DNA of 64,000 nucleotides from a bacterium (GTDB lineage: Bacteria; Patescibacteriota; Patescibacteriia; Buchananbacterales; GWA2-38-13), in the NCBI GenBank assembly GCA_030648715.1, contig JAUSGZ010000014.1, forward strand, positions 1,055-65,054. Direction: 5' to 3'. Of this stretch, positions 38,372-55,974 are shown piece after piece. The position numbers and the translations under genes are program-made. A model generated the notes under the pieces. It had not been told where the DNA came from, ran no database searches, and saw only the letters and a list, made by a program, of their open reading frames with translations. The stretch's first letter is position 1, and every line of letters begins with the position of its first letter.

Positions 38372-39259
38372 TTACTTTTGTGCGAACAAAACCAGATTTC
38401 CGGCGTACATTTTCAACCTCACATCAAGACCGGGCCTTTGGAGGAGTCGCAGCAGGAATAGTTTCATCTTTTTCGGTAACGGAAATAACCGCACCCAGTA
38501 AGAAAGATTATGAATGTTGAATGCGCTGTTCACTTCGCGCACGGTGAATCCGTGCTTTTCAAACAGCGCCCGCATCGTCCGCTTATCGTAGAGGTAGGTA
38601 TGTTCGATATCGATGATCGGGCTGGCGCGGCCTAAAAGTTTTGCCGACCAGGCGCCGACGTTGTGGTTAAAGAACAACGCCACTCCGTTTTTTTTCAACA
38701 GCCCGCGGCAGGATGCCAGCACCGCGTTGGGGTCCGGCAAATGGTCCAGGGTCTGGAAGCAGCAGATGACGTCAAAGTACTCATTGGGGAACAGCCCCGG
38801 GCGGATAACGTCGACCAGGATGTGCGGACGAAGTTCCGGGGGCGCTTTTTCTACCGATTTTTCCCCCGGCTCGACCCCATAGACTTCCGCGTAACCCTGC
38901 CGCTGCGCCTCGTCGAGAAAGAAACCGTTGCCGCAGCCGATCTCGAGCAGGCGTTCCTTCTCCGCATGGTAGCGCGCCACCTGCTGCAGGTAATGGCCGT
39001 ACGTGCGCACCAGGTTCTCGACCTGCGCATCGTAACTGACAAAGCTTTTGCGATACCACGCGTTGATCTTTTCCACTTCCAGGATCGGATTGGAGTAGAT
39101 CAGGCCGCAGCGGTTGCAACGCACGATACGGTAATGGATACGGTCGGGCAGTCGGCGCGCCGAAAATATCTTCTCGTCGAGAAGCTGCACGTCGAAATTC
39201 TCTTGATAGACGACCGCGAAGTCGCTGCGCTCACACAGCGCACAATTTTGCTGTACCAT
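38372..39259 (-). CDS. class I SAM-dependent methyltransferase with N-terminal zinc-ribbon
   Basis: 295 aa. CALCER...CNRCG (Cx2C...Cx2C), motif I LLEIGCGNGFF, and an acidic motif II. Confidence 0.75.
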   Translation of the reverse strand: MVQQNCALCERSDFAVVYQENFDVQLLDEKIFSARRLPDRIHYRIVRCNRCGLIYSNPILEVEKINAWYRKSFVSYDAQVENLVRTYGHYLQQVARYHAEKERLLEIGCGNGFFLDEAQRQGYAEVYGVEPGEKSVEKAPPELRPHILVDVIRPGLFPNEYFDVICCFQTLDHLPDPNAVLASCRGLLKKNGVALFFNHNVGAWSAKLLGRASPIIDIEHTYLYDKRTMRALFEKHGFTVREVNSAFNIHNLSYWVRLFPLPKKMKLFLLRLLQRPGLDVRLKMYAGNLVLFAQK

Positions 39260-39304
39260 GAATCCTTGAGTATGCTACTATTGACCCTGTATTTTGGCGC
39301 AGCT

Positions 39305-40090
39305 ATGGACCAAATCCAGCTCCACGAAAACTTGCGGCGCACGATGATCCGCATCGCGCACGCCAGTAAATCGGGCCATACCCACATCGGATCGTGCTTG
39401 TCGTGCATCGACATCGTAGCACAAACGATACTATTTGAAATGCGGCGAAACGACAAATTCATCCTCTCGAAAGGCCATGCTTCGCTGGCGCTGTATGTTG
39501 TGTTGCGCGAAAAAAAGCGGATCACCGACGAAATGCTGGACAGCTATTTTTGCGACGGCGGGCATTTCGGCATCCATCCGCCGTCATCACTCCCTGACGA
39601 CATCCCATTGCCGACCGGCAGCCTCGGACACGGGCTGTCATTCGGCTGCGGCGTCGCCAAAGGATTCCTCTACCGGCGAAAAAAGCCGCTGCCGCGCGTA
39701 TTCGTCCTGCTCTCTGATGGTGAATGCAATGAAGGCGCCGTCTGGGAGGCGGCAATGTTTGCCAGCCACCACCAACTGAACAATTTGGTCGCCCTGATCG
39801 ACCGCAACGGCTGGCAGGCCTTCGGCCGGACGAAAGAAGTGTTAGGCGACGCGGCGGCCCCGGACAAATGGCGGGCGTTCGGATTCAATACCTACCGCGT
39901 GAACGGCCACCGAATTTCCGACCTGCAGGCGGTATTCAAAAATATCCGCGTTAACCGCAACGGCAAACCGCACGCAGTCATCTGCGATACCGTGCGGGGC
40001 AAGGGCATTAAAACTCTACACGACCAGCTGCACTCCAATTATACGACCGTGGATACCGCCATGCTGCTGCAGGCGACGGGTTCCCACTAG
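39305..40090 (+). CDS. transketolase, N-terminal (TPP-binding) subunit of a split transketolase
   Basis: About 261 aa from MDQIQLHE. GH(T/A)HIGSCLS, LSKGHASLALY, SLGHGL, LLSDGECNEGAVWEA (TPP-binding GDG-like). The upstream part of the long +ORF is antisense to the methyltransferase and was discarded. Confidence 0.8.
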   Translation: MDQIQLHENLRRTMIRIAHASKSGHTHIGSCLSCIDIVAQTILFEMRRNDKFILSKGHASLALYVVLREKKRITDEMLDSYFCDGGHFGIHPPSSLPDDIPLPTGSLGHGLSFGCGVAKGFLYRRKKPLPRVFVLLSDGECNEGAVWEAAMFASHHQLNNLVALIDRNGWQAFGRTKEVLGDAAAPDKWRAFGFNTYRVNGHRISDLQAVFKNIRVNRNGKPHAVICDTVRGKGIKTLHDQLHSNYTTVDTAMLLQATGSH

Positions 40091-40091
40091 T

Positions 40092-40997
40092 ATGCGGGTT
40101 GCTTTCGCCAAATCTTTTTTGACGGTCGCCGCCAGAGATCCGCGCGTGATCTTTTTGACCGGCGACCTCGGATTCAACGCGTTCGAGCCGCTACAGCGCC
40201 GGCTGAAGAACCGCTTCATCAACGCCGGGGTCGCCGAACACAACATGGTGACCGCGGCGGCGGGCTTGGCCTATACGGGGTTGCAACCATGGGTGTACAG
40301 TATCGCGCCGTTCGTCACGATCAAGGTGGTGGAAGAGATCCGCAACGACATCTGCCTGCAAGGCGCCAACGTGAAGATCGTCGGGCTGGGCGGCGGCTAT
40401 GACTATGGCCTGGCCGGGCCGACGCACCACGCGCTTCAGGACGTAGCCGCGATCCTGTCATTGCCCAACATCAAGGTCTACGCGCCAGGGTTCGCGCAGG
40501 ATGTGGCGGTCATTGTCGGAAAAATGCACCGGGAGAAAACGCCGGCGTACCTGCGGCTGACGAAGGGCCAGCCCACGGACCTGCGGCTGCCGCCCTATGC
40601 ACCGAGCCGCCGTATTGCGAAAGGCGCCAAGATGACGGTCGTCGCCCTGGGCTCCATCGCGAGACCGATTTGCGAGCTGGTCGCGCAAAAGGCCGTGCCG
40701 GCGGGGACCATTGACCTGTGGGTGGTCTCCGAACTGCCGCAAGAACTTCCGCCACAGCTGTTCCGATCCATCCGCCAGACCAAAACCCTGGCCGTCGTGG
40801 AGGAACACGTAAAAACCGGCGGTTTGGGGCAGTGGATCGCCCACACGCTCATTGAGCGCGGCATCCCGGTTTCCCGCTTCATCCATCTGTATGCCAAGGG
40901 GTATGCCACGAAACGCTACGGCAGCCACGAGTTCTATCTGCGACAGACCGGACTGGACAAGGGAAGCATTGCGCGGACGCTCCGCCGCTCCCTGTAA
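40092..40997 (+). CDS. transketolase, C-terminal (pyrimidine-binding) subunit
   Basis: 301 aa. FINAGVAEHNMVTAAAGLA, IAPFVT, GPTHHALQDVA are typical of the transketolase central/C-terminal domain. The start is 1 nt after the N-subunit stop. Confidence 0.8.
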   Translation: MRVAFAKSFLTVAARDPRVIFLTGDLGFNAFEPLQRRLKNRFINAGVAEHNMVTAAAGLAYTGLQPWVYSIAPFVTIKVVEEIRNDICLQGANVKIVGLGGGYDYGLAGPTHHALQDVAAILSLPNIKVYAPGFAQDVAVIVGKMHREKTPAYLRLTKGQPTDLRLPPYAPSRRIAKGAKMTVVALGSIARPICELVAQKAVPAGTIDLWVVSELPQELPPQLFRSIRQTKTLAVVEEHVKTGGLGQWIAHTLIERGIPVSRFIHLYAKGYATKRYGSHEFYLRQTGLDKGSIARTLRRSL

Positions 40998-41032
40998 ACC
41001 GTCAATTTCTGACGACCCTGGCGCGCCACATC

Positions 41033-41971
41033 TTGAAACTGCGCGGTCCCATCGCTGTTTTCGGCGCCGGCGGTTTTGTCGGGGTTAATTTGCTGCAAAC
41101 GCTGCGGGAACAACGTTCGGACGTCATCGGTTATTCCCAAGCGCCCGCCAGATCCTGGCGGCTCCGCCAGGCCAAGATCCCAACGACCTGCCTGGAAAAA
41201 ATTGACCTGCTGCAGCCCGCGCAGCTTGCCCGTACGTTGGCGCGTCACCGGCCCCAGACGGTCTTCAACCTCGCGGCCTACGGCGCCTACGCCAAACAAA
41301 AGGATATCGCCAAGATCCACGCCACGAATTTTCTCTCCACGGTCAACTGCCTGGAGCTCCTGAAACGGCGCGGATTTGCAGCTTACCTCCACGCCGGTTC
41401 CCAATCGGAGTATGGGCTCAATGCCGCCGGACCGCGCGAGGACGCCGAGCTGGTCCCCAACAGCCACTACGCCGTCTCCAAGACCGCCGCCTACTACCTA
41501 ATGAAATACTACGGGAAGGTGGAACGATTGCCGGTCGCCCATGTCCGCCTCTACTCGGTGTACGGCCCGTGGGAAGAACCCGACCGGTTGATCCCCACCC
41601 TCATCCGCGCGGCGAAACAAAAAAAGTTGCCGCAGTTCGTCGCGGCCGACATTTCCCGCGACTTCGTGTACGTCGACGACGCCGTGGCGGCCCTTATCGC
41701 GGTGGCGGCCACCCTGCAGCGGAAAAACTACGGGGAGGCCTTCAATATTGCGACCGGTACGAAGACCACGATGCGCGAGCTGGCGGCCCTGACCAAGGAG
41801 CTGTTTTCCATCCCGCAGCGGCCGGCGTTCGGCACCATGCGCAACCGCGGCTGGGACGTCCGTGATTGGTACGGGAACCCGGCCAAGCTGCAGCGCACCA
41901 CCGGCTGGAAGGCGGCAACGACGCTCGCCCAGGGCCTGAAGCGCTGCTACGACCATGCAGGACGCGCCTGA
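41033..41971 (+). CDS. NAD-dependent epimerase/dehydratase (extended SDR)
   Basis: 312 aa. VFGAGGFVGVNL, YAVSKTAAY (YxxxK). Confidence 0.75.
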   Translation: MKLRGPIAVFGAGGFVGVNLLQTLREQRSDVIGYSQAPARSWRLRQAKIPTTCLEKIDLLQPAQLARTLARHRPQTVFNLAAYGAYAKQKDIAKIHATNFLSTVNCLELLKRRGFAAYLHAGSQSEYGLNAAGPREDAELVPNSHYAVSKTAAYYLMKYYGKVERLPVAHVRLYSVYGPWEEPDRLIPTLIRAAKQKKLPQFVAADISRDFVYVDDAVAALIAVAATLQRKNYGEAFNIATGTKTTMRELAALTKELFSIPQRPAFGTMRNRGWDVRDWYGNPAKLQRTTGWKAATTLAQGLKRCYDHAGRA

Positions 41972-42665
41972 ATTTTCCATTGTCTTTCCGGTCCTCAACC
42001 AGGAAGACCACATTGAACGCGTCATCCGCGCCTACCATGCGGCGCTGCAAGACGCCAATTTTTCGTTTGAATTGATCCCCGTGGTCAACGGAACCACCGA
42101 CCGCAGCTACGCCATCTGCCAGCAGCTGGAGCGGACACTCCCGGAAATACGCGCGTTCCGGCTGCAGGGAGCCGGGTACGGGCTGGGCATTCTCCACGGG
42201 CTGGCGCAGGCAAGAGGGAAGTACCTCGGCTACCTCAACTGCGCCCGTATCACGGCGGAAGACCTCGTGATGTGCTTGCGGCAATTCCAGACCAACCCGG
42301 CGGCTATCGTACATGGAGTGCGCGTCCAGCGGAGCGCGGTGCAGCGTACGATCCTGTCGGTCGGCTACAGCACGCTCTGCCGGCTCATTTTCCGGCTCAA
42401 GACCTCGGACGTGAATGGCAACCCCAACTTTTTCTCGCGCCTGTGGTACGAGAAGTTCCACCTGCGCAGCACCGACAGCATGATCGACGTGGAGTTGCAG
42501 GACAACGTGGGCAAGGCCGACGCGCCGCTCATCGAAGTCCCCATCCACAGCTACCGGCGGCACGGCGGCATCTCCACGACGACATTCTGGACCACGTTCC
42601 GGCTGCTGAAAGAGGGAATCCACTACTGGTGGAGAACAAGGATCCTAAAAAACGACCAACGGTAA
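41955..42665 (+). CDS. family 2 glycosyltransferase (GT-A)
   Basis: 236 aa. FSIVFPVLNQEDHI is a GT2 N-terminal signature. Overlaps the epimerase stop, suggesting translational coupling. Confidence 0.75.
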   Translation: MQDAPEFSIVFPVLNQEDHIERVIRAYHAALQDANFSFELIPVVNGTTDRSYAICQQLERTLPEIRAFRLQGAGYGLGILHGLAQARGKYLGYLNCARITAEDLVMCLRQFQTNPAAIVHGVRVQRSAVQRTILSVGYSTLCRLIFRLKTSDVNGNPNFFSRLWYEKFHLRSTDSMIDVELQDNVGKADAPLIEVPIHSYRRHGGISTTTFWTTFRLLKEGIHYWWRTRILKNDQR

Positions 42666-42694
42666 AAAAACCGCCCGCTCGGGCGGTTTTTTTA
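42664..42694 (+). terminator. rho-independent terminator
   Basis: aaaaaaaccgcccg-ctc-gggcggttttttt. Confidence 0.7.
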
Positions 42695-42777
42695 CCGACC
42701 CCCGTTGACAAATCCAGCCGTCGTTGCCATACTTGCTACGGCGTTTCCCAACCGCGGTTCTTTTACGGAGGTACAGA

Positions 42778-43004
42778 TGGCCTACGAACATTTGAACGAT
42801 GAACAACTGCGACAGCGGATCAAGGAGCTCGAAGCGCAAGGCTTCACCGGCTTGAACAACGCCGAACTCCACCTGCTGAATATCGCGCAGACGTCCCGCA
42901 TGTCTGACGCGGATCTGCTGGCGAAAATCCGCGAACGCCGCGCTCAGGGCAAACCAACCGGCAAGCTCGAAGCCGCCGCCCGCCAACGCGGGCTTTCCAT
43001 CTAG
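42778..43004 (+). CDS. small hypothetical helical protein (75 aa)
   Basis: MAYEHLNDEQLRQRIKELEAQGF... RBS ggagg 8 nt upstream. Bracketed by two terminators. A longer alternative start at 42705 lacks an RBS. Confidence 0.5.
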
Positions 43005-43024
43005 CACACTCGCACGCACCCCCA

Positions 43025-43057
43025 GAGGCTGGCACACCCAGCCTCGCATTTTTTTAT
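43025..43057. terminator. bidirectional rho-independent terminator
   Basis: gaggctgg-cacac-ccagcctc followed by gcattttttta. Confidence 0.6.
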
Positions 43058-45120
43058 TCCTCGAGCTGCGCGGAGATCAGCCGATAAATATCCAGCGTCT
43101 CCAGCTGCTCAGACAATACGTACGCGGACGGCAGCATCGTGCGGAAAAGATTCAATTCGTTGGCCCGCTGCCGCTGGAAATCATCGAAGGCGTCGCGGCC
43201 GTTGCCGACCAGCACGGCTTCGGGCTGCAGGCGAGTAACGGCGTCCGCCAGCACCCGCAGGTCGGCGGGCGTGTAGAGGTTGAAACTGTAATACACCGGC
43301 AGCGCGTTCACTTTACCCGCATAGTAAAGGAGTTTGCTGTCGTTGATGTGCACGAGCGCCACCCGCGATCCCGCAAACTCGCGAGCGATGATTTCCGCAT
43401 CACGGACCAGCACGTCTTCGTTGGCGGGGACGCGGCGGAAACTGGCGGCGACCGCGGCGTAGTCACGGTTGCCGAATTCTACCGGCAGCTTGACCAGGAT
43501 GAGCCCGAGGAAGAACGCCGCGACCGCGTATGCACCGGCAGCCGCCAGACGGCGGGACGACCCCGCCAGTTGGGGAAGGTAACGGTCGACCAGGACGGCA
43601 ATGACCACCACCCACGGCCAGGCGACAAAATACAGTTGCTGCCAGGTAGATTCGCCAATGTAGTACACCATCGAGAGCGCACCGTAGGCGGCAATAAAAA
43701 GCAGCGGCCCATCCAAGGGCATGCCGCTCAACAGTCTACGCGCCTGTGCGACCAGCACGGCAAGATAGGTGAGCACGAGCACCTGGAAAAGTCCGAACAT
43801 CGGCAGCGGGGACACGAAGTATCCCTGGGTCACCTGCCGGAGCTCACGCAGGTAGTGCAACCAATCCGGCGCAGCACCCACGGTAACGATGTTGGCCAGC
43901 GTGATCATCCCGAATACCGCCGCCGCGAACGCAAGGTAGATACCCCCCAGCCGCCGGACTCGCGAAAGCAGCGGCGCGGAACTGGAAGCTGCGAGGGAAA
44001 TCAGCACGGCGCCGCCCACCGCCAGCCCGGTATCCAAATTCCAAAAAAGCGCCAATGCCGCCCAGGCCAGCGCCAAGCGCGCCGACGCCCAGCGACCGTG
44101 CCGGGCAAACGACTGCACGCACCACCACGCCGGCACCACCAGCCAGAACCGGAACGGGGTCATGGCGGGGAAGAGGTACGCGCTGCGCGTCGGGCTGGTC
44201 TGGAACAACAACAGAAGCGCAAACACCGCCAGCGTCGTTACCGCGGCCAGTACGGACGACGTCAGCGACCGCCGCAGCACGGCAAATAGGCCGGCCAAGA
44301 ACCCAAAAAATACGACCGCCAGCAGCAGCGAGAACGCCGGATACGCGAAAGGCAGCACCCAGCGGAATATGGCGGAGATCGCGTAGTGGTTCAGCACCCC
44401 GTACAAACTGGACGTCTCATACAGCAGCGCCTTGCCATGCAGCTGGTCGTTGACCGGCGCCAAAAAATAGTTGTAGTGATGGTAGTCGACGGGGAAATTC
44501 GGATGCCACACGAGCAACGCGAGCAAGGGTAGCAGCAGCCACCACCCGCGCGCGAAGGCCCGGTCCACGAATGGCGGAACACGCACGGGCAGCGGGCGAC
44601 GGGAAAACGCGTACGCGGCGGCAAAAACGACCGCGGCCACGCCGACCAGGGCAACGGACGAAAACAGCCGTTTCGTGGTTAGCAGCCACAGCGCGCGGCC
44701 AAGCCCACGCGCCTGCACGTAGCCCAGCGCCGTTGAAAAAAATCCTGCCAATTTTCCGACCGGCGCAACGGGGGCAAGTGTGAAAACGACGAGCACCGCG
44801 CCAGCCACGACGACCCACCGCCGCGCCGAGCGGGGCACCGCGGCCGCGCAACGCTCCAACACCCATTTGCCCGCGAAGGCCAAGATGGGGATGACCAGGT
44901 ACCCGGCCAAGTAGAGCGGGATCTCATACGGCTCGGGATGCAAAAAACCCGGCCCGAAACTGGCAAACAGCGTCGGGGGCCGGTGGAATCCCCGGTACAG
45001 GTAATCCTGCAGCAGCCGCGCGCCCGCGAAGTAACCGACAACGGCCGCCGCCAGCCCCCAAAAAAAATACGCTCCGCGACCGCGGTTGAGCGCTAACAGC
45101 CATGACGTACGGGGCACCAT
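43054..45120 (-). CDS. large polytopic membrane protein of unknown family (paralog A; N-terminal ~12 TM + ~250-aa C-terminal soluble domain). Possible GT-C-type glycosyltransferase/polymerase.
   Basis: 688 aa. Shares collinear similarity with the 49994..52063 product, e.g. HPEPYEIPLYLAGYL / LPEPWEMPLFLAGYL, LWLLTTKRL, LYETS..YG.LN.YA. Confidence 0.65.
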   Translation of the reverse strand: MVPRTSWLLALNRGRGAYFFWGLAAAVVGYFAGARLLQDYLYRGFHRPPTLFASFGPGFLHPEPYEIPLYLAGYLVIPILAFAGKWVLERCAAAVPRSARRWVVVAGAVLVVFTLAPVAPVGKLAGFFSTALGYVQARGLGRALWLLTTKRLFSSVALVGVAAVVFAAAYAFSRRPLPVRVPPFVDRAFARGWWLLLPLLALLVWHPNFPVDYHHYNYFLAPVNDQLHGKALLYETSSLYGVLNHYAISAIFRWVLPFAYPAFSLLLAVVFFGFLAGLFAVLRRSLTSSVLAAVTTLAVFALLLLFQTSPTRSAYLFPAMTPFRFWLVVPAWWCVQSFARHGRWASARLALAWAALALFWNLDTGLAVGGAVLISLAASSSAPLLSRVRRLGGIYLAFAAAVFGMITLANIVTVGAAPDWLHYLRELRQVTQGYFVSPLPMFGLFQVLVLTYLAVLVAQARRLLSGMPLDGPLLFIAAYGALSMVYYIGESTWQQLYFVAWPWVVVIAVLVDRYLPQLAGSSRRLAAAGAYAVAAFFLGLILVKLPVEFGNRDYAAVAASFRRVPANEDVLVRDAEIIAREFAGSRVALVHINDSKLLYYAGKVNALPVYYSFNLYTPADLRVLADAVTRLQPEAVLVGNGRDAFDDFQRQRANELNLFRTMLPSAYVLSEQLETLDIYRLISAQLEE

Positions 45121-45486
45121 AATTGACAGGGGAATCCTTCACCACTATACTAGGGATTCTGTTCTCTCAAAAGAGCGGATGACCGCGTCGGGCAATTTCG
45201 GAAAAGGGGACGCTTTCCCCTGCCAGCGCCTACCAAGCAGCAAGGGTTCTCTCCTTGCGACCGCCCCAACGTCCGGCAGACGTGCCTACGCCCGTCAATG
45301 TTTTGCACGGCGGGCGAAAGCGCATCGGAGTATGCAGAGGCAAACGCCGGTTTCCTTACCGGCGCTGACGAAGAGGTGCGCTGCAGTGACGCGCGCGGTA
45401 CCTACCCGTATTCCGAGGGTCAGTCTTGGCCGTTCTCCGCTCTTTCTTTGCCGCGCCCGTTGGGATTCTTCCCGACGGGCGTTTTT

Positions 45487-48547: not shown

Positions 48548-48560
48548 ATCGCAATGTTGG

Positions 48561-49993: not shown

Positions 49994-52063
49994 TCAATCC
50001 CGCCCAGGAGCGCGAACAGGCCGGTAGATCTGCAACGTTGCCCACGATTCCGCCGGCGCATACTGGCCGTCGATCGCCGCCATGAAGTACGGCCGATAGG
50101 GAAAATCCTCATTGCCGATGAGTAGGTACTCGGGGCGCTCGCGGCGCACCTGGTCGGTCAGCCGCTGCAGGTTCCAGTCGAACACCACGTCCAGCTGGTC
50201 GTAAATGGGAAACCAGTTGGTGCGGCGCGACAGCAGGAGCAGCTGGCCGTCATTGGCGTGCACCAGCGGCGGCCGGCTGCCGGGCAGGAACTCGGCTGCG
50301 ATGCGCTCCGCATCCGCCAGCAGTTCGGGGGTGTCGGCGCTCGCTTGAGGACGCAACCGCTGGGTAATGTCCCGGTAGTTGCGCGTGCTGAAAAGCACGG
50401 GCAGCTTCGCAGCAACGATCAGCGCGACAAAGGCCGCGAGCGCAACGAAGGCCCGTGCCGCGAGGGGCTCATGCGGCCCGCGGGTATAGGCGGCAAACAG
50501 GTACAGGTCGGAAACCAGGTACAGCAGCACGAACACCAGCGGCGTGCTGATCGGGTACAGGTAGCTCCAGGCTGAATTGCCGACATAGTAGGTGACCGAT
50601 AGCGCGCCGTAGGTCAAAAGGAAAAGGAATGTTGCATCGACCTTCCGCCCGACCGCCCAACGCCGCAGCACCAGCACCCCCGCCGCCAGGTAGGTCAGCA
50701 CATACCATTCGAACATCCCGACCGCCGGCATGGGCAATTTGCTGATGCCCGTCCGGTAGACGGCCATGGCATCGCGGTAGAGGGAGAAGTTCGGCCACGC
50801 CCCGTAGTACCAGAAGTTGCCGACCGCCACCGCGGAAAAACCCAGCGCCAAATACGCCGCCTGCCGCAGGCCGGTCGCCAGCAGCCGCCGCAGCAGCACC
50901 TTCGGGCTCAGACTGGAAAGTTGAATTGCCGCCGCGGCCACCACCGTTGCCGCCGCGATGGCCAAACCGGAATCCAGGTTCCACACGGCCGCCACCGCCG
51001 CGAGCTGCAACGGCAAGTCGCGACGCCACCAGGGAAGCTGCGGCCGGCGGCTGACAAACAATACCGCCGCCGCGACCAGTACGTACCAGCCCTGGCGATA
51101 CGGCGTCGTGCCCGGGTAGTGCACCGAGGAAAGGAACGGCCCGGCCTGCAGGAGGAAATAGGTACCAACGGCGGTCGCCGTGCCAAGCAGCGCCAACAAC
51201 CGCGAATGCAGCCAGCGCTTCAACAGCGCATAACTGAAGGCGAAAAAGAAAAAATAACTGACCGACAGGACCAGGGAAAGTGCTTGGTAGCTGAGCGGTA
51301 CGATTTTGAACAGCGCGACCAGCGCGTAGGTATTCAAGATCCCGTATTGGTTGGTAGTTTCATAGAGGAACGGTTTGCCGGCGAGCACGTCGTTGACCGT
51401 ACCGATGACGTGGTTGGCGTGACGTTGCTCATACGGAAATGACGGATCAAAAATGATGACGGCCAGCAGCACCAGCAGCCACGGCTCCAACCTGGCAATC
51501 CACCGCGGGTCGGCGTGCCGCTTCAGCCAATGAAAACTCGCCTGCCGCCAGCGCCAGGATAAGAAGAGGAACACCGCCACGCTCACGCCCAGCGCCAGCC
51601 GCACGGCGTACAGCCGTTTCGTGGTCAAGAGCCACAAAGCATGCCACACGCCGACGCGCTCCAGGTAGCCGGCGACGAACGCCGCGCGCTCGGAGATCAG
51701 GGGCGAAAATCGCCACCCCAGAGCAACGGCCAGCACGGCCACTGCTGCGAGCATTCCCAGCCGGAGCCGGACGCTCGGCCGCGGCCAGCGCCGCACCCGC
51801 GTGAAGGCCGACGAGATCGGATAGTACAACACCAAGGCGATCAACGGGATCGCCAGGTAACCCGCCAAAAATAACGGCATCTCCCAAGGCTCGGGCAAAA
51901 CCTCGAATGTGGAGAGCTTGTGCGCGACCGCCCACCGGTCCACGGGCAGCACGCGGTCCTGCAAGAAGCGGGAAGCGGCAAAATACCCCAAGGTCGTTGC
52001 AGCCAACGCCGCAAGCGCCGGCGGCCAGCGAAACGTTCCAAGAAATGCGCGGGCATTGAACAT
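49994..52063 (-). CDS. large polytopic membrane protein of unknown family (paralog B)
   Basis: 689 aa. Collinear with 43054..45120 (see above). Confidence 0.65.
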   Translation of the reverse strand: MFNARAFLGTFRWPPALAALAATTLGYFAASRFLQDRVLPVDRWAVAHKLSTFEVLPEPWEMPLFLAGYLAIPLIALVLYYPISSAFTRVRRWPRPSVRLRLGMLAAVAVLAVALGWRFSPLISERAAFVAGYLERVGVWHALWLLTTKRLYAVRLALGVSVAVFLFLSWRWRQASFHWLKRHADPRWIARLEPWLLVLLAVIIFDPSFPYEQRHANHVIGTVNDVLAGKPFLYETTNQYGILNTYALVALFKIVPLSYQALSLVLSVSYFFFFAFSYALLKRWLHSRLLALLGTATAVGTYFLLQAGPFLSSVHYPGTTPYRQGWYVLVAAAVLFVSRRPQLPWWRRDLPLQLAAVAAVWNLDSGLAIAAATVVAAAAIQLSSLSPKVLLRRLLATGLRQAAYLALGFSAVAVGNFWYYGAWPNFSLYRDAMAVYRTGISKLPMPAVGMFEWYVLTYLAAGVLVLRRWAVGRKVDATFLFLLTYGALSVTYYVGNSAWSYLYPISTPLVFVLLYLVSDLYLFAAYTRGPHEPLAARAFVALAAFVALIVAAKLPVLFSTRNYRDITQRLRPQASADTPELLADAERIAAEFLPGSRPPLVHANDGQLLLLSRRTNWFPIYDQLDVVFDWNLQRLTDQVRRERPEYLLIGNEDFPYRPYFMAAIDGQYAPAESWATLQIYRPVRAPGRD

Positions 52064-52069
52064 ACGCGG

Positions 52070-54448
52070 CTACTGCTGGGTGAAGATATCGCGCCAGGCG
52101 CGATCCAAGGAATATGTGAATTCAAGCTGATGGTCGCCCTGCGGCACCCGAACGGCCTGCAACAGATAGTTGGCAGGATAGTGCGCCGTCGGAAGGCCGT
52201 CCAGCGCCGCCGTCCAGCCCGGCAGGTTGGCGTAGCCGAAGATGAACCACGCATCCGCAGCGGCGCGCACCGCGAACCGGTACCGCGCGGTTGACGCTTC
52301 CAGCACCTGCACCGTACCCGTCGCCGAGGATACCGGGCAGTCCGCGCATTCGAGGAGCACGGCGTTCTGCAACTGCGGCTGGTGGTTTAAAAATGCCTGC
52401 CAGGCATCCGCGTCATTGGCAACGGCGGTGGCCTGCACCGCAGGAGCAAAATAGGAGCGCGGCTGCACGGTCGTTAACCGGTAGACGTAGAGCGGCAGCT
52501 GGCGGGTGGTTACATCCAAAGTTGCGACGAGCGTCAGGTCGGGGTGCGGCAGCGGGTAGAGGCTCACGATGGTACCGACGTTGAATGCGGCCAGCACGGG
52601 CAATCGTTCTAAAAATTTCGCGCGCTTTTCTTCAAAACTGATATCCAGCGTGGCCAGCTGCTCGCCGGCCGTGCCGCGGCTGGAGCCCAGGTACGACAGG
52701 ACGCGGGCGCTGCGGCGGTCCATGATGTTGTCGTAGTAGTCCAGGCCGTCGCTGCCATCCAGGAGCTGAAGGTTGGCAGAACCCAATGCGCGATGGAGCG
52801 AGATGTTATCGTCCGGCGCGTAACCAAAAGGGACATCAAGCTGCTGATACACAGAGGAACCGGGGAGAAAAGAAAAAAAGCGTTCGCCGGGCGGCACTGA
52901 CCAGCCCGGTGCAATACGCAGCACGCGCGCGTCGGCGGTCGGCAGCGCCGAGAACGCCAACGGCGCGAGGTTCCCCGCGGTCAACGCCAACGCGAAAACC
53001 GCGAATGCTCCGACCGCTATCCTGCCGTTGGCGACACTACGCAGCAGCCATCCGGCAACCGCCAAAGATGCGATCGCGAGTGCAGTGGGAAAAGACCAGA
53101 CCGTGACGCCGCCGGCCACCTGGCGCAGCAGCTCATCAAGCACCTGGTGATAGTGGGAGATCGGCAGCCCCGTAGTGCGCGCGTACCAAAAGCGGTCAAA
53201 CAGCGCGAATGCCGCCGAACGCAGCGGCGCCGCCGCGACCAGCCAGATGGCAGACAGCCCAACCAGTACCGCGACGACGCGCGCCGTCCAGTGGCTGACG
53301 CGCCGCGCCGTGATCCGCCACGCCTCATCCTTGCCGGCGACAATGACATCCAGACCCGCGGCGGCCACAAACGCAGCCGCGACATTCCCAACATACATCC
53401 AGCGCGCCGACGCGCGGAATAAGGAGAATACGGGCAGCCGGTTCACGAGCCACGCGAGGGGCGAACCCGACCAGGCCAGGAGCAGGCTCCCCAACAACCC
53501 CCACCAGGCGACGCGTACTCGCCAGTCGCGCAGCCGCAATCCCAAAATTGCCAGCAAGAACGGCAACGCTCCCATGTACAAGAAACCGGGGGTGGAGGTC
53601 AGCCGCGGCAGCGCAACGCGCGGCAGCAGCCAGCTGGAAAGATCCAGCAACCGCAGCCCGCCCTCGCCGCTCGCACCTGAATTCAGCCGCGCCGAAAGCC
53701 GCGCGAAAGCCAAGGTGGGCAGCAGCAGCGGCAGCGCCATGACGGCCGCGGCCGAAAACAGCGCGACTGTTCCCGCGAGCGTCTGCCAGCGTTGCGCCCG
53801 CCAGGAAAGTGCTGCGGCGAACGCGAACACCGCGGTGCCGTACACCAACGGCCACTGCAGGTGGCCGACGTGCAGGCTGTGTGCAAAGATCAGCGCGCCG
53901 CCGGCAACCATTGCCCACCATCGCGCCTGCCGCACCGACGAGCAGTGCAGGTGCCACACGCACAGCAAGAGCGCGGGGAACGTCCAATAGGTCACGCTGA
54001 CGGTGATATTGCCGGCAAACCCGAGCAGCGCGGGAGACAACGGAACAACCAGCGCTGGCAGTGCCGCCGCCGGACGGCCGAACCCGAGCGCGCGCGCCAA
54101 TCCGTAGGTGCACAGCGCCGTCAGCACAAAGCTCGCCCCCGTCAGCCAGGCGTAGACGGTAATGACGTCGAACGTCGAAAACAGCCACTGCTGCAAGGGC
54201 GAACGCAAGCCGCCGAGGGTGCTGGCCGCGGTCGGGAACCCGGCCAGGACGTGCGGGTTGAAATCCACGGACTGGCCCGCGCGCAGTACGCGCTGCAGCC
54301 AGGTCAGGATGGGATAGAATTGCAGCACCGCGTCGCCGTCCGCGAACACCCGTCCGAAGAACAACACCGGGGAAAAAACGGCGACCACGACAGCCAACGG
54401 GAACGCCAGCCACCCCAAGGAACGCACTCGGGCAACAGCACCCATAAG
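52070..54448 (-). CDS. YfhO-like large polytopic membrane protein (putative glycosyltransferase acting with the GtrB-like GT2)
   Basis: About 792 aa from MGAVARVRSLGWLAFPLAVV (the ORF-track start at 54562 would overlap the upstream gene by 107 nt). Many TM helices throughout. FYP-containing N-terminal region. Confidence 0.6.
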   Translation of the reverse strand, partial: LMGAVARVRSLGWLAFPLAVVVAVFSPVLFFGRVFADGDAVLQFYPILTWLQRVLRAGQSVDFNPHVLAGFPTAASTLGGLRSPLQQWLFSTFDVITVYAWLTGASFVLTALCTYGLARALGFGRPAAALPALVVPLSPALLGFAGNITVSVTYWTFPALLLCVWHLHCSSVRQARWWAMVAGGALIFAHSLHVGHLQWPLVYGTAVFAFAAALSWRAQRWQTLAGTVALFSAAAVMALPLLLPTLAFARLSARLNSGASGEGGLRLLDLSSWLLPRVALPRLTSTPGFLYMGALPFLLAILGLRLRDWRVRVAWWGLLGSLLLAWSGSPLAWLVNRLPVFSLFRASARWMYVGNVAAAFVAAAGLDVIVAGKDEAWRITARRVSHWTARVVAVLVGLSAIWLVAAAPLRSAAFALFDRFWYARTTGLPISHYHQVLDELLRQVAGGVTVWSFPTALAIASLAVAGWLLRSVANGRIAVGAFAVFALALTAGNLAPLAFSALPTADARVLRIAPGWSVPPGERFFSFLPGSSVYQQLDVPFGYAPDDNISLHRALGSANLQLLDGSDGLDYYDNIMDRRSARVLSYLGSSRGTAGEQLATLDISFEEKRAKFLERLPVLAAFNVGTIVSLYPLPHPDLTLVATLDVTTRQLPLYVYRLTTVQPRSYFAPAVQATAVANDADAWQAFLNHQPQLQNAVLLECADCPVSSATGTVQVLEASTARYRFAVRAAADAWFIFGYANLPGWTAALDGLPTAHYPANYLLQAVRVPQGDHQLEFTYSLDRAWRDIFTQQ

Positions 54449-54455
54449 GCTAATA

Positions 54456-55223
54456 TTAGCGTTGCGGAGGGGGCGGCACCCGGCGGCGGAAACGGTAGTA
54501 GAGCAGATTGCGCAAAAATTCCCAGATCGCCGACGGCGGCACGAACGACGCCCGCCGCTCATTCTTATAAAAAATGGTGGAAACCTCTCCGACCTTCAAT
54601 TTCAGCCGCAAGGCCTCGAGCATGATCTCCGCATCCGTGAACCAGTCGTTGGATAACAGCTGCATCGCCTGGTAGGCGCGGCGCGTCATCACCTTGGGTT
54701 TGGAATTGATGTCGCGGAAACTGGCGGACGGAGGGAACAGCACGCGGAAGAGCAGGTTGTACAATCGGGAAATAGTGGCGCGGTACCGACCATCATGCCG
54801 CTGGGCACGGAAAGTTTTGACCAGGTCGTAGCCGCCCACCTGCAGCACCTGATAGACCTTGACGATATCGCTGGACGGCATCTGGCCGTCGCCGTCAATG
54901 ACCGCGAGATGCCGTCCCGTCGCCGCCTCCAGGCCGGCGCGCATGTCCCAACCCATCATGCCTTCTTTGACGCGGGCGACCACTTTGATGCGAGGGTTGG
55001 CGGCCGCCAGCTCCTGTACGATCTGGGGCGTGCGGTCGGGACTTTCGGCATGGAAATTGGCGACCAGCACCAATTCGTAGTCAAGGTTTGCCTCTTTTAA
55101 TTCGCGGGTCAGCTGCGCCACAAATTCGCGCGCCAATTCTTCGGCGCGGTAGCACAGCACCACAACCGACAGCTCCGGCCCGGCGGAGGGCGTGACCAGC
55201 GTTGTGTGGCGGGCAAGCTCCAT
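54456..55223 (-). CDS. GtrB/DPM1-like family 2 glycosyltransferase (polyprenyl-phosphate sugar synthase-like)
   Basis: About 255 aa from MELARHTT. LSVVVLCYRAEE, DGDGQMP (DxD), C-terminal amphipathic/TM helix. The ORF-track start at 55259 overlaps the SDR gene. Confidence 0.75.
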   Translation of the reverse strand: MELARHTTLVTPSAGPELSVVVLCYRAEELAREFVAQLTRELKEANLDYELVLVANFHAESPDRTPQIVQELAAANPRIKVVARVKEGMMGWDMRAGLEAATGRHLAVIDGDGQMPSSDIVKVYQVLQVGGYDLVKTFRAQRHDGRYRATISRLYNLLFRVLFPPSASFRDINSKPKVMTRRAYQAMQLLSNDWFTDAEIMLEALRLKLKVGEVSTIFYKNERRASFVPPSAIWEFLRNLLYYRFRRRVPPPPQR

Positions 55224-55227
55224 AGTG

Positions 55228-55974
55228 CTAACGGCGGAACGGCCGCGTGATGGCGTCAAACACGGGATCCGGCAGCCAGGCCGTTACCCGCAGCGCGCAA
55301 GAAACCAGCCACGGGTAGGTTACGACCGTACGGCCGGAATCCATCGTCCGCACGATCGCGGCAGCCGCCTGCTGGGCGGTGCGCAAATGCGGCGCGAACC
55401 GTACGCGCCGCCGTTCAGCCCCCGCAAAGCCCTCGGTCGCGATCGGGCCGAACTGGATGACCTTGAAACGGACGCTGCTGTTACGGTACCGCAAGGCCAG
55501 CGACCGGAATGCCATGGTCAGCGCCGCTTTGCTGGCCGCGTAGCCGACGCCCAACGGATCGGGCCGCCGGGCAAAGAGGGAAGAAACGGCGACAAACTGC
55601 CCGCCGCGCTGCTGCACTTGGGGGAGCAGCCGGCCAACCAGCGCCAGCGTGCCGGAAACGTTGACCGCCAGGACCTTGGCGGCCACCGCCGCGTCGAATT
55701 CTTTGTCGCTGTCGTGCGGATAAATGCCGGCGTTGAGTACCACCGCGTCCGGCACAAACTCAACCGAGGCCAGGGCGCGCGCCACGATGTCCGCCGCCCC
55801 CGGCGAAGCCAGGTCCGCGGCAACGAATGAAAAATTCTTCCCAAGTTGAGCTTGCACTTCCGCCAGCGCCGTAACGCTGCGGCTCACGCCAAACACCCGA
55901 TCGCCCCGCGCGGTCAGTAGTCCGACCAAGGCCCGCCCGATGCCCGATGTTGCCCCGGTAACGACGATCTGCAT
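55228..55974 (-). CDS. classical short-chain dehydrogenase/reductase
   Basis: 248 aa. VVTGATSGIGRAL, NAG, YAASK (YxxxK). Confidence 0.8.
   Translation of the reverse strand: MQIVVTGATSGIGRALVGLLTARGDRVFGVSRSVTALAEVQAQLGKNFSFVAADLASPGAADIVARALASVEFVPDAVVLNAGIYPHDSDKEFDAAVAAKVLAVNVSGTLALVGRLLPQVQQRGGQFVAVSSLFARRPDPLGVGYAASKAALTMAFRSLALRYRNSSVRFKVIQFGPIATEGFAGAERRRVRFAPHLRTAQQAAAAIVRTMDSGRTVVTYPWLVSCALRVTAWLPDPVFDAITRPFRR

What the first reader, a model, noticed from the sequence alone, without database searches (positions are those of the whole stretch)
38372..55974. 17-kb envelope-glycan locus combining carbamoyltransferase, split transketolase, two methyltransferase/epimerase steps, GT2/GT4, flippase, YfhO+GtrB pair and two novel 688-aa membrane proteins
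Gene content read from the ORFs implies three coupled activities. First, synthesis of a modified sugar: transketolase halves, epimerase, SDR and zinc-ribbon methyltransferase. Second, NodU/CmcH-type O-carbamoylation of it. Third, assembly on a polyprenyl carrier (GtrB-like GT2), flipping (Wzx-like) and extracytoplasmic transfer by a YfhO-like protein and two further giant polytopic proteins. Split-transketolase genes next to glycosyltransferases are known from ketose/heptose-modifying polysaccharide pathways. Carbamoylated envelope glycans are rare. This looks like an undescribed surface polymer or protein-glycosylation pathway.
Basis: partly seen in the sequence, partly recalled or inferred. 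Interest (0 to 1): 0.65.

Follow-up and report, generated by a model that had tools for sequence, protein, structure and literature searches.

The report
Surface-sugar assembly locus of a Parcubacterium
This is a real, intact, co-conserved 19.5-kb gene cluster in an uncultured ultra-small (Parcubacteria/CPR) bacterium that most likely builds a modified surface sugar polymer outside the cell membrane, using three or four large membrane sugar-transferases (two from an unnamed family) and an unusual transketolase-like enzyme.

Summary
The window is an NCBI MAG labelled only 'bacterium' (Q7S23_*), 88-98% identical in protein (U553 76%) to Parcubacteria bacterium Gr01-1014_31.

The 830-aa ORF (really about 791 aa) is a distant YfhO relative. 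GT2b resembles DPM synthase, ArnC and PgfS.

Synteny across lineages with only 28-52% identity links the M688 family, YfhO-like, U553, GT2b, SDR and the split transketolase. In one relative they form a single operon. The carbamoyltransferase is accessory, seen in three lineages.

The transketolase is not housekeeping. All seven glycan-locus copies have lost the canonical substrate His and Asp.

[quoted passage not shown] Product, donor and acceptor are inferred, not shown. The locus should be extended to 36442 to include U553.

The parts
36442..38103 (+). U553: about 13-TM membrane protein with a Cys-rich C-terminal domain (weak DUF6798). Its fold is unresolved. It is co-conserved with the locus and low in GC (0.46 against 0.63 for the locus).
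   Evidence: Pfam. Homologs lie next to the TK module in L001 (76%) and L003 (45%, operonic with TK-N), and between the YfhO-like and M688-like genes in L019 (32%). An invariant NRLAHDQI.H motif follows TM1.
38372..39259 (-). SAM-dependent methyltransferase with an N-terminal 4-Cys zinc ribbon, transcribed divergently from the TK operon.
   Evidence: Methyltransf_23 at 4e-25. Sequence. It is conserved in the same divergent position in L016 (63%) and L017 (58%).
39305..40090 (+). Transketolase-like ThDP enzyme, N-terminal (PP-domain) subunit, 261 aa.
   Evidence: Transketolase_N. The best PDB match is the split TK of C. hydrogenoformans, 6yak, at 9e-43. The start was fixed.
40092..40997 (+). 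Transketolase-like C-terminal (Pyr plus C domain) subunit. The canonical substrate His and Asp are replaced (G100 and A108).
   Evidence: Pfam. PDB 6yaj at 1.7e-31, and the alignment to human TK. Alignment of the TK-C subunits from the other glycan loci, plus L019.
41033..41971 (+). Extended-SDR nucleotide-sugar epimerase/dehydratase/reductase-family enzyme (GxxGxxG and YxxxK present).
   Evidence: Epimerase at 2.9e-44. The best PDB matches are MoeE5, GalE and RmlB. It shares 54% identity at the same position in L017.
41955..42665 (+). GT2a: small soluble GT2 glycosyltransferase (236 aa), the last gene of the TK operon. A terminator follows at 42665-42693.
   Evidence: Glycos_transf_2. It is 98% identical in L001 and 46% in L017 at the same position. 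Terminator sequence.
43054..45120 (-). M688: GT-C-fold glycosyltransferase of an unnamed family, with an all-helical TM body and a small alpha/beta C-terminal domain. E63 and E66 are invariant in the first outside loop.
45121..45486 (.). 366-bp spacer between GT4 and M688. It carries a plus-strand promoter-like site and a strong plus-strand terminator, which makes it a candidate antisense small RNA. Its function is unknown.
45487..46728 (-). GT4 (GT-B fold, retaining-type family) cytoplasmic glycosyltransferase. Its start is uncertain by a few codons.
   Evidence: Glycos_transf_1 at 9e-36 and Glyco_transf_4 at 2e-24. It lies directly upstream of an M688-family gene in L003, L007, L009 (lower length filter), L010, L013 and L024.
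46817..48547 (-). NodU/CmcH-family O-carbamoyltransferase (Kae1-like plus YrdC-like domains), intact.
   Evidence: Carbam_trans_N covers 1-346 of 346 positions and Carbam_trans_C covers 1-170 of 170. PDB matches are NovN, GdmN and TobZ, 1e-68 to 1e-53. It is 77-81% identical in L003 and L024.
48561..49943 (-). Wzx-like MOP-superfamily flippase. The start is uncertain; relatives are 437-449 aa.
   Evidence: Polysacc_synt at 5.8e-21, above the cut-off. NCBIfam 'MOP flippase family'.
49994..52063 (-). M689: paralog of M688, so also a GT-C.
   Evidence: 35% identity over 686 aa, E 3e-78. It is a member of alignment A1.
52070..54445 (-). Y830/791: distant YfhO-family GT-C-type membrane protein. D38 is invariant (FADGDA) just after TM1.
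   Evidence: Its own Pfam hit is only E 0.009. All 11 homologs hit PF09586, best 5.5e-24. The L019 ortholog carries an unmarked PF09586 hit. Invariant residues.
54456..55223 (-). GT2b: soluble polyprenyl-phosphate-sugar-synthase-like GT2 (255 aa). It is the most conserved gene of the system.
   Evidence: Best NCBIfam hits are PgfS, ArnC and AglJ. PDB matches are DPM synthase 5mlz, ArnC and GtrB 5ekp. It is 74-81% identical in L003, L005 and L011, where the GT-Cs are only 36-52% identical.
55228..55974 (-). Classical SDR oxidoreductase (248 aa), the first gene of the minus-strand operon, 4 bp from GT2b.
   Evidence: adh_short at 1.8e-32. It is co-conserved in L003, L005, L011, L014, L015, L019 and L022. 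In L019 it lies between TK-C and GT2b.

Best explanation
The region is a multi-component transmembrane glycosylation locus of a Parcubacteria (CPR/Patescibacteria) bacterium.

Shown:
- Two tightly packed operons plus U553 encode two small soluble GT2 enzymes. One of them is DPM-synthase/ArnC/PgfS-like.
- They encode one GT4 and a Wzx-type flippase.
- They encode three membrane proteins that are GT-C glycosyltransferases by fold or family (M688, M689, YfhO-like), plus a fourth of unknown fold (U553).
- They encode tailoring enzymes: a classical SDR, an extended SDR, a transketolase-like ThDP enzyme with an altered substrate pocket, a Zn-ribbon methyltransferase and an O-carbamoyltransferase.
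- These genes travel together in distant relatives.

Inferred mechanism:
- In the cytoplasm, GT2b (and probably GT2a) loads a monosaccharide from a nucleotide sugar onto polyprenyl phosphate.
- The sugar is remodelled, before or after loading, by the SDRs (oxidation, epimerisation or reduction), by the TK-like enzyme (two-carbon C-C chemistry on a non-canonical, probably non-phosphate-ester substrate), by O- or C-methylation and, in this lineage, by O-carbamoylation.
- GT4 adds a sugar to a cytoplasmic lipid-linked primer.
- The MOP flippase moves lipid-linked intermediates across the membrane.
- Outside the membrane, the YfhO-like enzyme and the M688/M689 paralogs (and perhaps U553) transfer sugars stepwise from the polyprenyl-phosphate donors onto an envelope acceptor, which could be a lipid-anchored glycan, a wall polymer or a surface protein.

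This logic is closest to mycobacterial LM/LAM assembly and to Gram-positive CsbB/YfhO-type decoration. It is not a self-contained Wzx/Wzy O-antigen pathway.
For: Gene families.

GT-C fold of M688:
- The AF2 model has pTM 0.84.
- The top 20 Foldseek hits are all GT-C.
- M689 is a paralog of M688.

Other membrane components:
- YfhO membership rests on homologs.
- Each of the three membrane families has an invariant acidic residue shortly after TM1, with a positively charged N-terminus. This is consistent with an extracytoplasmic first loop.
- GT2b resembles DPM synthase, ArnC, GtrB and PgfS.

Operon packing: gaps are 1-50 bp for most junctions, from the coordinates.

Co-conservation:
- A Y830 homolog lies beside the M688 family in every lineage with enough flank.
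- GT2b and SDR are present in 5-6 lineages.
- TK is present in 4 lineages.
- In L019 there is a single operon TKN-TKC-SDR-GT2b-MT-YfhO-U553-M688-like.

The TK is dedicated, not housekeeping:
- The MT|TKN-TKC-Epi-GT2a module recurs in Gottesmanbacteria and in another MAG, among glycan genes and not pentose-phosphate genes.
- All glycan-locus TK-C subunits have lost the His and Asp that bind the substrate in canonical TKs.

No phosphoglycosyltransferase, Wzy_C or GtrA was found in the 64-kb window.

Precedent: an SDR epimerase, a MOP-superfamily flippase and a GT-C act together on Und-P-pentofuranoses (PMC11127046).
Against: - There is no biochemical or structural data on any product. The donor sugar, carrier and acceptor are unknown.
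- GT2b and GT2a fall far below the curated cut-offs of every named equivalog. They lack the TM helices of GtrB and ArnC.
- In three related lineages (L007, L010, L013/L020) the M688 family and the YfhO-like gene sit beside a Bac_transf phosphoglycosyltransferase, a Wzy_C protein, Wzx and GT4, with no GT2b, SDR or TK. The family can therefore work with a classical Wzx/Wzy pathway, and its donor could be an Und-PP-oligosaccharide.
- The fold of U553 is unresolved.
- The stage at which the TK-like enzyme, methyltransferase and carbamoyltransferase act (nucleotide-linked, lipid-linked or polymer) cannot be told from sequence.
- Only 64 kb of the genome was inspected, so an initiating enzyme may lie elsewhere.
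Confidence: 0.65

Rival explanations
1. The locus is a classical Wzx/Wzy-dependent heteropolysaccharide (capsule or O-antigen-like) locus. Repeat units are built on Und-PP by GT4 and the GT2s and flipped by Wzx. M688, M689 and/or U553 act as the polymerase or ligase, using Und-PP-oligosaccharide donors. The initiating transferase is encoded elsewhere.
For: - Wzx and GT4 are present.
- Relatives L007, L010 and L013/L020 place M688-family and YfhO-like genes next to Bac_transf, Wzy_C, Wzx and GT4.
- U553 has the low GC typical of Wzy/Wzx-type serotype genes in three lineages.
- Oligosaccharyltransferases (STT3, PglB, AglB) are also among the fold matches.
Against: - No phosphoglycosyltransferase, Wzy_C or chain-length regulator was found in the 64-kb window.
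- GT2b and SDR, which have no role in such a pathway, are the most tightly and most highly conserved partners in the window-type loci.
- The presence of 2-3 tandem M688 paralogs per locus fits stepwise transferases better than a single polymerase.
Confidence: 0.15
2. The locus is a protein O-glycosylation system (PMT/Pgf-like). GT2b makes a polyprenyl-P-sugar, and the GT-C enzymes glycosylate Ser/Thr-rich regions of surface proteins such as pilins, S-layer proteins or membrane proteins. This is a variant of the main explanation that differs only in the acceptor.
For: - The best NCBIfam hit of GT2b is PgfS of the streptococcal Pgf protein-glycosylation system.
- The window also carries three PMT_2-family GT-C genes.
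- Pilin O-glycosylation has been predicted but not studied in Saccharibacteria (PMC11623550).
Against: - No acceptor protein is identifiable in or beside the locus.
- Having several different GT-Cs plus GT4, Wzx and heavy sugar tailoring suggests an oligo- or polysaccharide rather than single-sugar decoration.
Confidence: 0.2
3. The cluster is a chance juxtaposition. The split transketolase is the housekeeping pentose-phosphate enzyme, and the carbamoyltransferase and methyltransferase serve unrelated metabolism next to ordinary glycosyltransferases.
For: - Split transketolases are bona fide TKs in some bacteria (6yak/6yaj).
- CPR genomes commonly keep the non-oxidative pentose-phosphate pathway (general knowledge).
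- TK is absent from about half of the M688-family loci.
Against: - TK subunits are operonic with MT, Epi and GT2, or with SDR, GT2b and YfhO, in at least six divergent genomes. They are never seen next to pentose-phosphate genes.
- The canonical substrate-binding His and Asp are replaced in all of them.
- CmT-GT4-M688 adjacency recurs in L003/L004 and L024.
Confidence: 0.04

Closest known systems
CsbB(GtrB-like)/GtcA/YfhO three-component glycosylation of lipoteichoic and wall teichoic acids in Bacillus and Listeria (PMC5836110; review PMC8035078)
   Same: A GT2 is predicted to make a polyprenyl-P-sugar, and it is adjacent to a YfhO-family GT-C membrane protein. Transfer takes place outside the membrane.
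   Different: - The YfhO relative here is very distant; its own Pfam hit is below threshold.
- There is no GtrA/GtcA small flippase. A Wzx/MOP protein is present instead.
- GT2b lacks TM helices.
- Two or three further GT-Cs of other families, GT4 and sugar-tailoring enzymes (TK-like, SDRs, MT, CmT) are part of the unit.
- The host is a CPR bacterium with no known teichoic acid.
Mycobacterial PIM/LM/LAM and arabinan assembly (PimA/PimB GT4; Ppm1 GT2; PimE, Mpt, Emb and Aft GT-Cs; DprE1/DprE2 epimerisation of the lipid-linked sugar)
   Same: - A cytoplasmic GT4 step is combined with a soluble GT2 polyprenyl-P-sugar synthase and several different GT-Cs acting outside the membrane.
- An oxidoreductase is positioned to remodel the carrier-linked sugar.
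- PimE, AftA and AftB are among the structural matches of M688.
   Different: - There is no sequence-level membership in any of those GT-C families.
- There is no DprE1 or UbiA-type phosphoribosyltransferase.
- The TK-like enzyme and the carbamoyltransferase have no counterpart.
- The analogy rests on architecture only.
GT136-type three-component pentofuranose systems of Citrobacter youngae O antigens (Kelly et al. 2024, PMC11127046)
   Same: A lipid-linked monosaccharide donor, a MOP-superfamily flippase, a GT-C with an extra C-terminal domain and an auxiliary SDR epimerase that sets the sugar identity are all encoded together.
   Different: - The donor synthase there is a PRPP-dependent polyprenyl-phosphoribose synthase. 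Here it is a GT2.
- M688 has no detectable sequence relation to known families (not tested against GT136 itself).
- The system here has multiple GT-Cs.
Streptococcal Pgf system (PgfS GT2, PgfM1/PgfM2 membrane proteins, PgfE epimerase) for protein O-glycosylation
   Same: GT2b's best named hit is PgfS. The GT2, epimerase and two large polytopic membrane proteins are encoded together.
   Different: The PgfS hit scores 51.7 bits against a cut-off of 500. The membrane proteins were not shown to be related, and the acceptor is unknown.
NodU/NolO/CmcH/TobZ/NovN/GdmN O-carbamoyltransferases
   Same: The two-domain architecture is full length. E-values to the solved NovN, GdmN and TobZ structures are 1e-68 to 1e-53.
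   Different: The known members act on Nod factors or antibiotics. Here the gene sits inside an envelope-glycan operon of a CPR bacterium, the substrate is unknown, and it falls below the NodU equivalog cut-off (156 against 1000 bits).
Split-chain transketolase of Carboxydothermus hydrogenoformans (PDB 6yak/6yaj) and canonical transketolases
   Same: Two-subunit organisation. The ThDP/metal motif (SDGECNEG...N), the cofactor-activating Glu (AEHN) and the N-subunit His residues are retained.
   Different: - The His equivalent to human H416 / E. coli H461 is Gly.
- The Asp of the GEDG motif (human D424 / E. coli D469) is Ala, Leu or Tyr in all seven glycan-locus copies.
- The gene is embedded in glycan operons.
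- The scores sum to well below the NCBIfam transketolase cut-off.

Membership tests
GT-C fold glycosyltransferase superfamily (M688/M689) | A polytopic membrane core with the conserved GT-C helical arrangement, recognisable by structure comparison. | tested here: met
GT-C fold glycosyltransferase superfamily (M688/M689) | A conserved acidic catalytic residue in the first extracytoplasmic loop. | tested here: inconclusive
   E63 and E66 are invariant in 16 sequences and lie between TM1 and TM2, and the N-terminus is positively charged. Their position relative to the active-site groove was not checked in 3D, and there is no mutagenesis.
GT-C fold glycosyltransferase superfamily (M688/M689) | Use of a polyprenyl-(di)phosphate-linked sugar donor. 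| not testable with these tools
   Inferred only, from the fold and from the adjacent DPM-synthase-like GT2b.
Any curated GT-C sequence family (Pfam PMT_2, YfhO, STT3, Glyco_transf_22/39/83/87 and others) for M688/M689 | A significant match to the family HMM. | tested here: not met
   There are no Pfam hits for M688, M689 or ten distant relatives. There is no PDB sequence hit with the family profile. hhalign against the YfhO-like and U553 alignments gives probability below 2%. CAZy was not available.
YfhO family (PF09586) for the 791-aa protein | A match to PF09586 above the gathering score. | tested here: inconclusive
   The window protein scores 14.8 bits against a cut-off of 28.5, over the C-terminal 57 aa only. 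All 11 aligned homologs hit PF09586 at E<=0.1 (best 5.5e-24), only one other family (LiaF-TM) was hit, by a single member. The L019 ortholog carries an unmarked precomputed hit.
Gtr-type three-component glycosylation system (GtrA/GtrB/GtrX) | A GtrB-type GT2 with two C-terminal TM helices that makes Und-P-sugar. | tested here: inconclusive
   The catalytic domain resembles DPM synthase, ArnC and GtrB. No TM segment is predicted in the 255 aa. Activity was not tested.
Gtr-type three-component glycosylation system (GtrA/GtrB/GtrX) | A small GtrA-family (PF04138) flippase. | tested here: not met
   No PF04138 hit was found among the window ORFs scanned. The intergenic gaps in the locus are too short for an unlisted gene. 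A Wzx/MOP protein is present instead.
Wzx/Wzy-dependent polysaccharide pathway | An initiating phosphoglycosyltransferase (Bac_transf or MraY-like), a Wzy polymerase and a Wzx flippase encoded together. | tested here: not met
   Wzx is present. No Bac_transf, Glycos_transf_4 or Wzy_C was found in the window by Pfam or by tblastn with the L007 proteins. The rest of the genome was not inspected.
NodU/CmcH O-carbamoyltransferase family | Both Carbam_trans_N (Kae1-like) and Carbam_trans_C (YrdC-like) domains are present and full length. | tested here: met
   148.6 and 198.9 bits, covering the full profile. Matches to NovN, GdmN and TobZ.
Transketolase (EC 2.2.1.1) | A ThDP-binding fold with the GDG...N metal/diphosphate motif and the cofactor-activating Glu. 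| tested here: met
   Transketolase_N, Transket_pyr and Transketolase_C domains. The motifs are visible.
Transketolase (EC 2.2.1.1) | Canonical substrate-binding residues: the phosphate-binding His (E. coli H461 / human H416) and the Asp that binds the acceptor C2-OH (E. coli D469 / human D424). Their roles are taken from the established TK literature and recalled from memory. | tested here: not met
   Gly and Ala at these positions in the window protein. Gly and Ala/Leu/Tyr in all six other glycan-locus homologs. Both residues are present in C. hydrogenoformans and human TK.
GT136-type pentofuranose three-component system | A PRPP-dependent polyprenyl-phosphoribose synthase (UbiA-like) as the donor-forming enzyme. 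| tested here: not met
   No UbiA-family or phosphoribosyltransferase hit was found in the window.

The most novel reading that the evidence does not exclude
The transketolase-like pair has lost the phosphate-binding His and the stereo-determining Asp and is hard-wired to SDR, GT2, methyltransferase and GT-C genes. On this reading it performs two-carbon C-C bond chemistry on a nucleotide-linked or polyprenyl-phosphate-linked sugar aldehyde or ketone produced by the adjacent SDR. That would create a chain-extended or C-branched sugar, which is then methylated and carbamoylated and installed outside the membrane by dedicated GT-C enzymes of a previously unrecognised family. The product would be a CPR-specific lipoglycan or wall glycan, made by a sugar-biosynthetic logic not yet described for envelope polysaccharides.
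Probability: 0.2. Interest if true: 0.8.

Novelty: new variant of a known kind. Interest (0 to 1): 0.55.

Why it matters
Candidate Phyla Radiation bacteria are ultra-small, mostly uncultured episymbionts. Their surfaces mediate host attachment, yet their envelope glycans are essentially unstudied; one recent paper calls glycosylation in Saccharibacteria 'unexplored' (PMC11623550).

This locus gives a concrete, conserved and testable gene set for a CPR surface glycan.
- It defines an unannotated GT-C family: 1,774 50%-identity clusters at E<=1e-3, no Pfam model, and every close full-length (>=28% identity) relative traced to a named record except two comes from a CPR MAG (two are labelled 'uncultured Gammaproteobacteria', L014/L015).
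- It points to a transketolase-derived enzyme subfamily recruited into glycan synthesis. This could reveal new sugar chemistry and new GT-C acceptor and donor specificities useful for glycoengineering.

It is not a new principle. The overall logic (GT2 lipid-sugar synthase, flippase and GT-C) is well known.

Tried and rejected
1. Structure of U553. The single-sequence model was unusable (pLDDT 42.6). hhalign of the U553 family against the M688 family, the YfhO-like family and the PMT_2-like proteins gave probability below 9%. Pfam gives only a weak DUF6798 hit. The fold of U553 stays open.

2. The afdb50 fold library was unavailable.

3. Profile-profile comparison of the M688 family against the YfhO-like family showed no relation.

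4. Literature searches for characterised split transketolases in polysaccharide or branched-sugar pathways found nothing specific. The only result was an uncharacterised co-occurrence of two TK subunits, a methyltransferase and GTs in a C. fetus glycan region.

5. The housekeeping-transketolase reading is rejected, on the basis of synteny and active-site changes.

6. The 134-aa ORF at 42645-43049 (minus strand) and the 472-aa ORF at 45298-46716 (plus strand) are rejected as genes. They have no families or homologs and lie antisense to real features.

7. The 475-aa ORF starting at 38663 is rejected, because it overlaps the methyltransferase. The true TK-N start is 39305.

8. Rfam found nothing in the locus except tRNAs elsewhere in the window.

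9. The names and organisms of distant M688-superfamily members could not be obtained. All are unnamed metagenome proteins.

10. The word-indexed search with the YfhO-like protein found only 5 hits, so family membership had to be argued through locus-derived homologs.

Full report
**Source and anatomy**

The window has about 59% GC. Its proteins are identical to those of an NCBI MAG labelled only 'bacterium' (MDO8559666-73, locus tags Q7S23_*, contig 73,920 bp). Across this locus they are 88-98% identical (U553 76%) to Parcubacteria group bacterium Gr01-1014_31, GCA_007376135.1. The host is therefore a member of the Candidate Phyla Radiation.

ORF listing and Pfam, NCBIfam and PDB-sequence searches give two tightly packed transcription units.

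- On the plus strand: TK-N (39305-40090), TK-C (40092-40997), an extended-SDR 'epimerase' (41033-41971) and GT2a (41955-42665). The unit ends at a clear hairpin plus T-run (42665-42693).
- Divergent from it lies a Zn-ribbon SAM methyltransferase (38372-39259, minus strand).
- Convergent with that lies U553 (36442-38103), a roughly 13-TM protein.
- On the minus strand: SDR (55228-55974), GT2b (54456-55223), a YfhO-like protein (52070-54445), M689 (49994-52063), Wzx (48561-49943), carbamoyltransferase (46817-48547), GT4 (45487-46728) and M688 (43054-45120).
- The gaps are 4, 10, 6, about 50, 13, about 90 and 366 bp.

One listed ORF (134 aa, 42645-43049, minus strand) is spurious.

**The two 'novel 688-aa membrane proteins'**

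They are paralogs: 35% identity over 686 residues, E 3e-78. Neither they nor ten distant relatives match any Pfam family. The family profile matches no PDB sequence.

An AlphaFold2 model built on 16 family members is confident (pLDDT 79.7, pTM 0.84).
- The top 20 Foldseek hits are all GT-C glycosyltransferases.
- The strongest matches are enzymes that take a single sugar from a polyprenyl-monophosphate donor.
- E63 and E66 are invariant and lie between TM1 and TM2, behind a positively charged N-terminus. This is where GT-C catalytic acids are expected, but I did not verify it in 3D.

The family is rare. It gave 15 hits in a word-indexed search of 5.8 billion proteins. It occupies 8 loci among 185,579 species genomes, nearly all CPR, and 6 loci in the JGI metagenome scan. 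A profile search of 1.84 billion cluster representatives found a wider unnamed superfamily: 1,774 at E<=1e-3 and 141 at <=1e-30. All members examined are unnamed metagenome proteins.

**The other membrane components**

The 791-aa protein itself barely touches PF09586 (E 0.009). However, all 11 aligned homologs hit YfhO, and only one other family (LiaF-TM) was hit, by a single member (best 5.5e-24). D38 in 'FADGDA', just after TM1, is invariant.

GT2b's best named relatives are polyprenyl-phosphate sugar synthases: PgfS, ArnC and AglJ in NCBIfam, and DPM synthase 5mlz, ArnC and GtrB 5ekp in the PDB. All of these fall far below the curated cut-offs. GT2b has no TM helix.

U553 could not be classified.

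I combined contig look-ups, collection scans and tblastn of the window proteins against all fetched loci.

- Every lineage with enough flank has a YfhO-like gene beside 1-3 tandem M688-family genes.
- Two architectures appear.
  - Type A comprises window/L001, L003, L005/L012, L011 and L019. It carries GT2b and SDR, and GT2b is 55-81% identical where the GT-Cs are only 28-52%. The split TK is present in window/L001, L003, L005 and L019.
  - Type B comprises L007, L010 and L013/L020. It carries a Bac_transf phosphoglycosyltransferase, a Wzy_C protein, Wzx and GT4, and has no GT2b, SDR or TK.
- Most telling is L019, found through a distant family member. It has one co-directional operon: TKN-TKC-SDR-GT2b-MT-YfhO-U553 homolog-M688-like-GT2-...-GT4-GT4-Wzx.
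- The five-gene module MT|TKN-TKC-Epi-GT2a recurs with the same order and orientation in a Gottesmanbacteria genome (L017), at 46-58% identity. Its first three genes (MT|TKN-TKC) recur at 63-65% identity in another MAG (L016), whose contig ends inside TK-C. In both cases the module lies among glycan genes (Wzx, GT2, PMT_2-like) and not among pentose-phosphate genes.
- The carbamoyltransferase is accessory. CmT-GT4-M688 adjacency occurs only in window/L001, L003/L004 and L024.

**The transketolase-like enzyme**

Its closest solved relatives are the split transketolase of Carboxydothermus hydrogenoformans and human TK. The ThDP/metal motif, the activating Glu and the N-subunit histidines are kept.

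In the TK-C subunit, two canonical residues are replaced. Their roles are taken from the established TK literature and recalled from memory.
- The His that helps bind the substrate phosphate (human H416 / E. coli H461) is Gly.
- The Asp of the GEDG motif that binds the acceptor C2-hydroxyl (human D424 / E. coli D469) is Ala.
- The same two losses occur in all six other glycan-locus homologs, from two TK lineages only about 36% identical to each other.

Together with the synteny, this argues for a catalytically competent ThDP enzyme with a non-canonical substrate, dedicated to the glycan pathway. What it makes is unknown. A two-carbon extension or branch on an oxidised sugar is the most attractive guess, and I flag it as speculation.

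**Mechanism proposed**

The shown facts are the gene families, the GT-C fold, the operon packing and the co-conservation. The rest is inferred.

1. GT2b, and perhaps GT2a, charges polyprenyl phosphate with a sugar.
2. The SDRs, the TK-like enzyme, the methyltransferase and, in this lineage, the carbamoyltransferase tailor that sugar.
3. GT4 acts on a cytoplasmic lipid-linked primer.
4. The MOP flippase translocates the intermediates.
5. The YfhO-like, M689 and M688 enzymes (and U553?) transfer sugars outside the membrane onto an envelope acceptor.

Precedents for each element exist:
- CsbB/YfhO decoration of teichoic acids (PMC5836110, PMC8035078).
- Mycobacterial LM/LAM and arabinan assembly.
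- The GT136 three-component systems, in which a MOP-superfamily flippase, a GT-C and an auxiliary SDR epimerase work on a lipid-linked pentofuranose (PMC11127046).

The window holds no phosphoglycosyltransferase, Wzy_C or GtrA. A self-contained Wzx/Wzy pathway is therefore not supported here. The type B relatives show that the M688 family can accompany one, so an Und-PP-oligosaccharide donor or a polymer-level role is not excluded.

**Novelty and score**

The overall logic is known. Four things are new:
- a GT-C family with no curated model;
- its fixed partnership with a divergent YfhO relative and U553;
- the recruitment of a substrate-pocket-altered split transketolase, and in some lineages a NodU-type carbamoyltransferase, into an envelope-glycan operon;
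- the CPR host, whose glycobiology is essentially unexplored (PMC11623550).

I rate it a new variant of a known kind, with interest 0.55. The product, donor and acceptor all remain to be determined experimentally.

Noticed in passing
window 45121-45486 (candidate transcript about 45158-45490, plus strand): The 366-bp spacer between GT4 and M688 carries two plus-strand signals: a near-consensus promoter-like site (TTGACA-17-TATACT, 11 of 12 matches) and a strong terminator (13-bp stem plus T6). Together they predict a roughly 300-nt RNA antisense to the glycan operon. It folds better than shuffles (z -3.4, 0 of 100). It is as conserved against the relative L001 (92.6%) as the flanking coding DNA. 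It has no Rfam match. It is absent from L003, where the gap is 19 bp.
   Followed up: partly
window 42666-43053: A 389-bp insert relative to L001 (54-bp gap there) lies between GT2a and M688. It holds a promoter-like site with an extended TG (42705-42733), a GGAGG Shine-Dalgarno sequence and a 75-aa ORF (42777-43004, MAYEHLNDEQLRQRIKELEAQGF...). A terminator flanks it on each side. No homolog was found in any fetched locus.
   Followed up: partly
window 36442-38103 (U553), and tRNA at 36268-36338: U553 is much lower in GC than the rest of the locus (0.46 against 0.63). It is also far more diverged from the close relative (76% aa against 88-98% for neighbours, with no megablast-level DNA match). 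The same GC dip is seen in L001 and L003 but not in L019. A tRNA gene lies immediately upstream. The pattern is reminiscent of serotype-determining Wzy/GT genes or of gene replacement.
   Followed up: partly
window 7691-14920: There is a second glycosylation region: an extended-SDR epimerase (7691-8728), three PMT_2-family GT-C membrane proteins (8737-10383, 10350-11651, 13274-14920) and a flavin amine-oxidase-like gene (11823-13259). A 64-kb stretch of a small CPR genome thus holds six or seven GT-C-type proteins.
   Followed up: no
window 24000-28000: A low-GC island (0.42-0.47 against about 0.6). It holds an epimerase-family gene (24906-25928), a class I/II aminotransferase (25940-27160) and an unassigned 189-aa ORF. 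A 924-aa protein with PKD and lipase-like domains lies next to it (27978-30752). It may be horizontally acquired sugar-modification genes.
   Followed up: no
L005/L012 (GCA_964409225.1) 12135-19447, and L006: In a relative, the TK pair sits with an acetolactate-synthase-like ThDP enzyme (609 aa), a DegT aminotransferase, a NUDIX protein, an RmlA-like nucleotidyltransferase and a dehydratase. This means two different ThDP enzymes in one sugar pathway, which suggests branched or amino-sugar chemistry.
   Followed up: no
distant M688-superfamily members P0190, P0207, P0217 and P0174: Some distant relatives carry an inserted biotin/lipoyl-like domain (around residues 240-300). One carries a C-terminal ConA-like lectin domain (Laminin_G_3). 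This hints at carbohydrate binding and at unexplained domain insertions in this GT-C superfamily.
   Followed up: no
L014, L015 (genome contigs): Two loci with M688-family genes are labelled 'uncultured Gammaproteobacteria' MAGs, whereas all the others are CPR. This is either mis-binning or transfer outside CPR.
   Followed up: no
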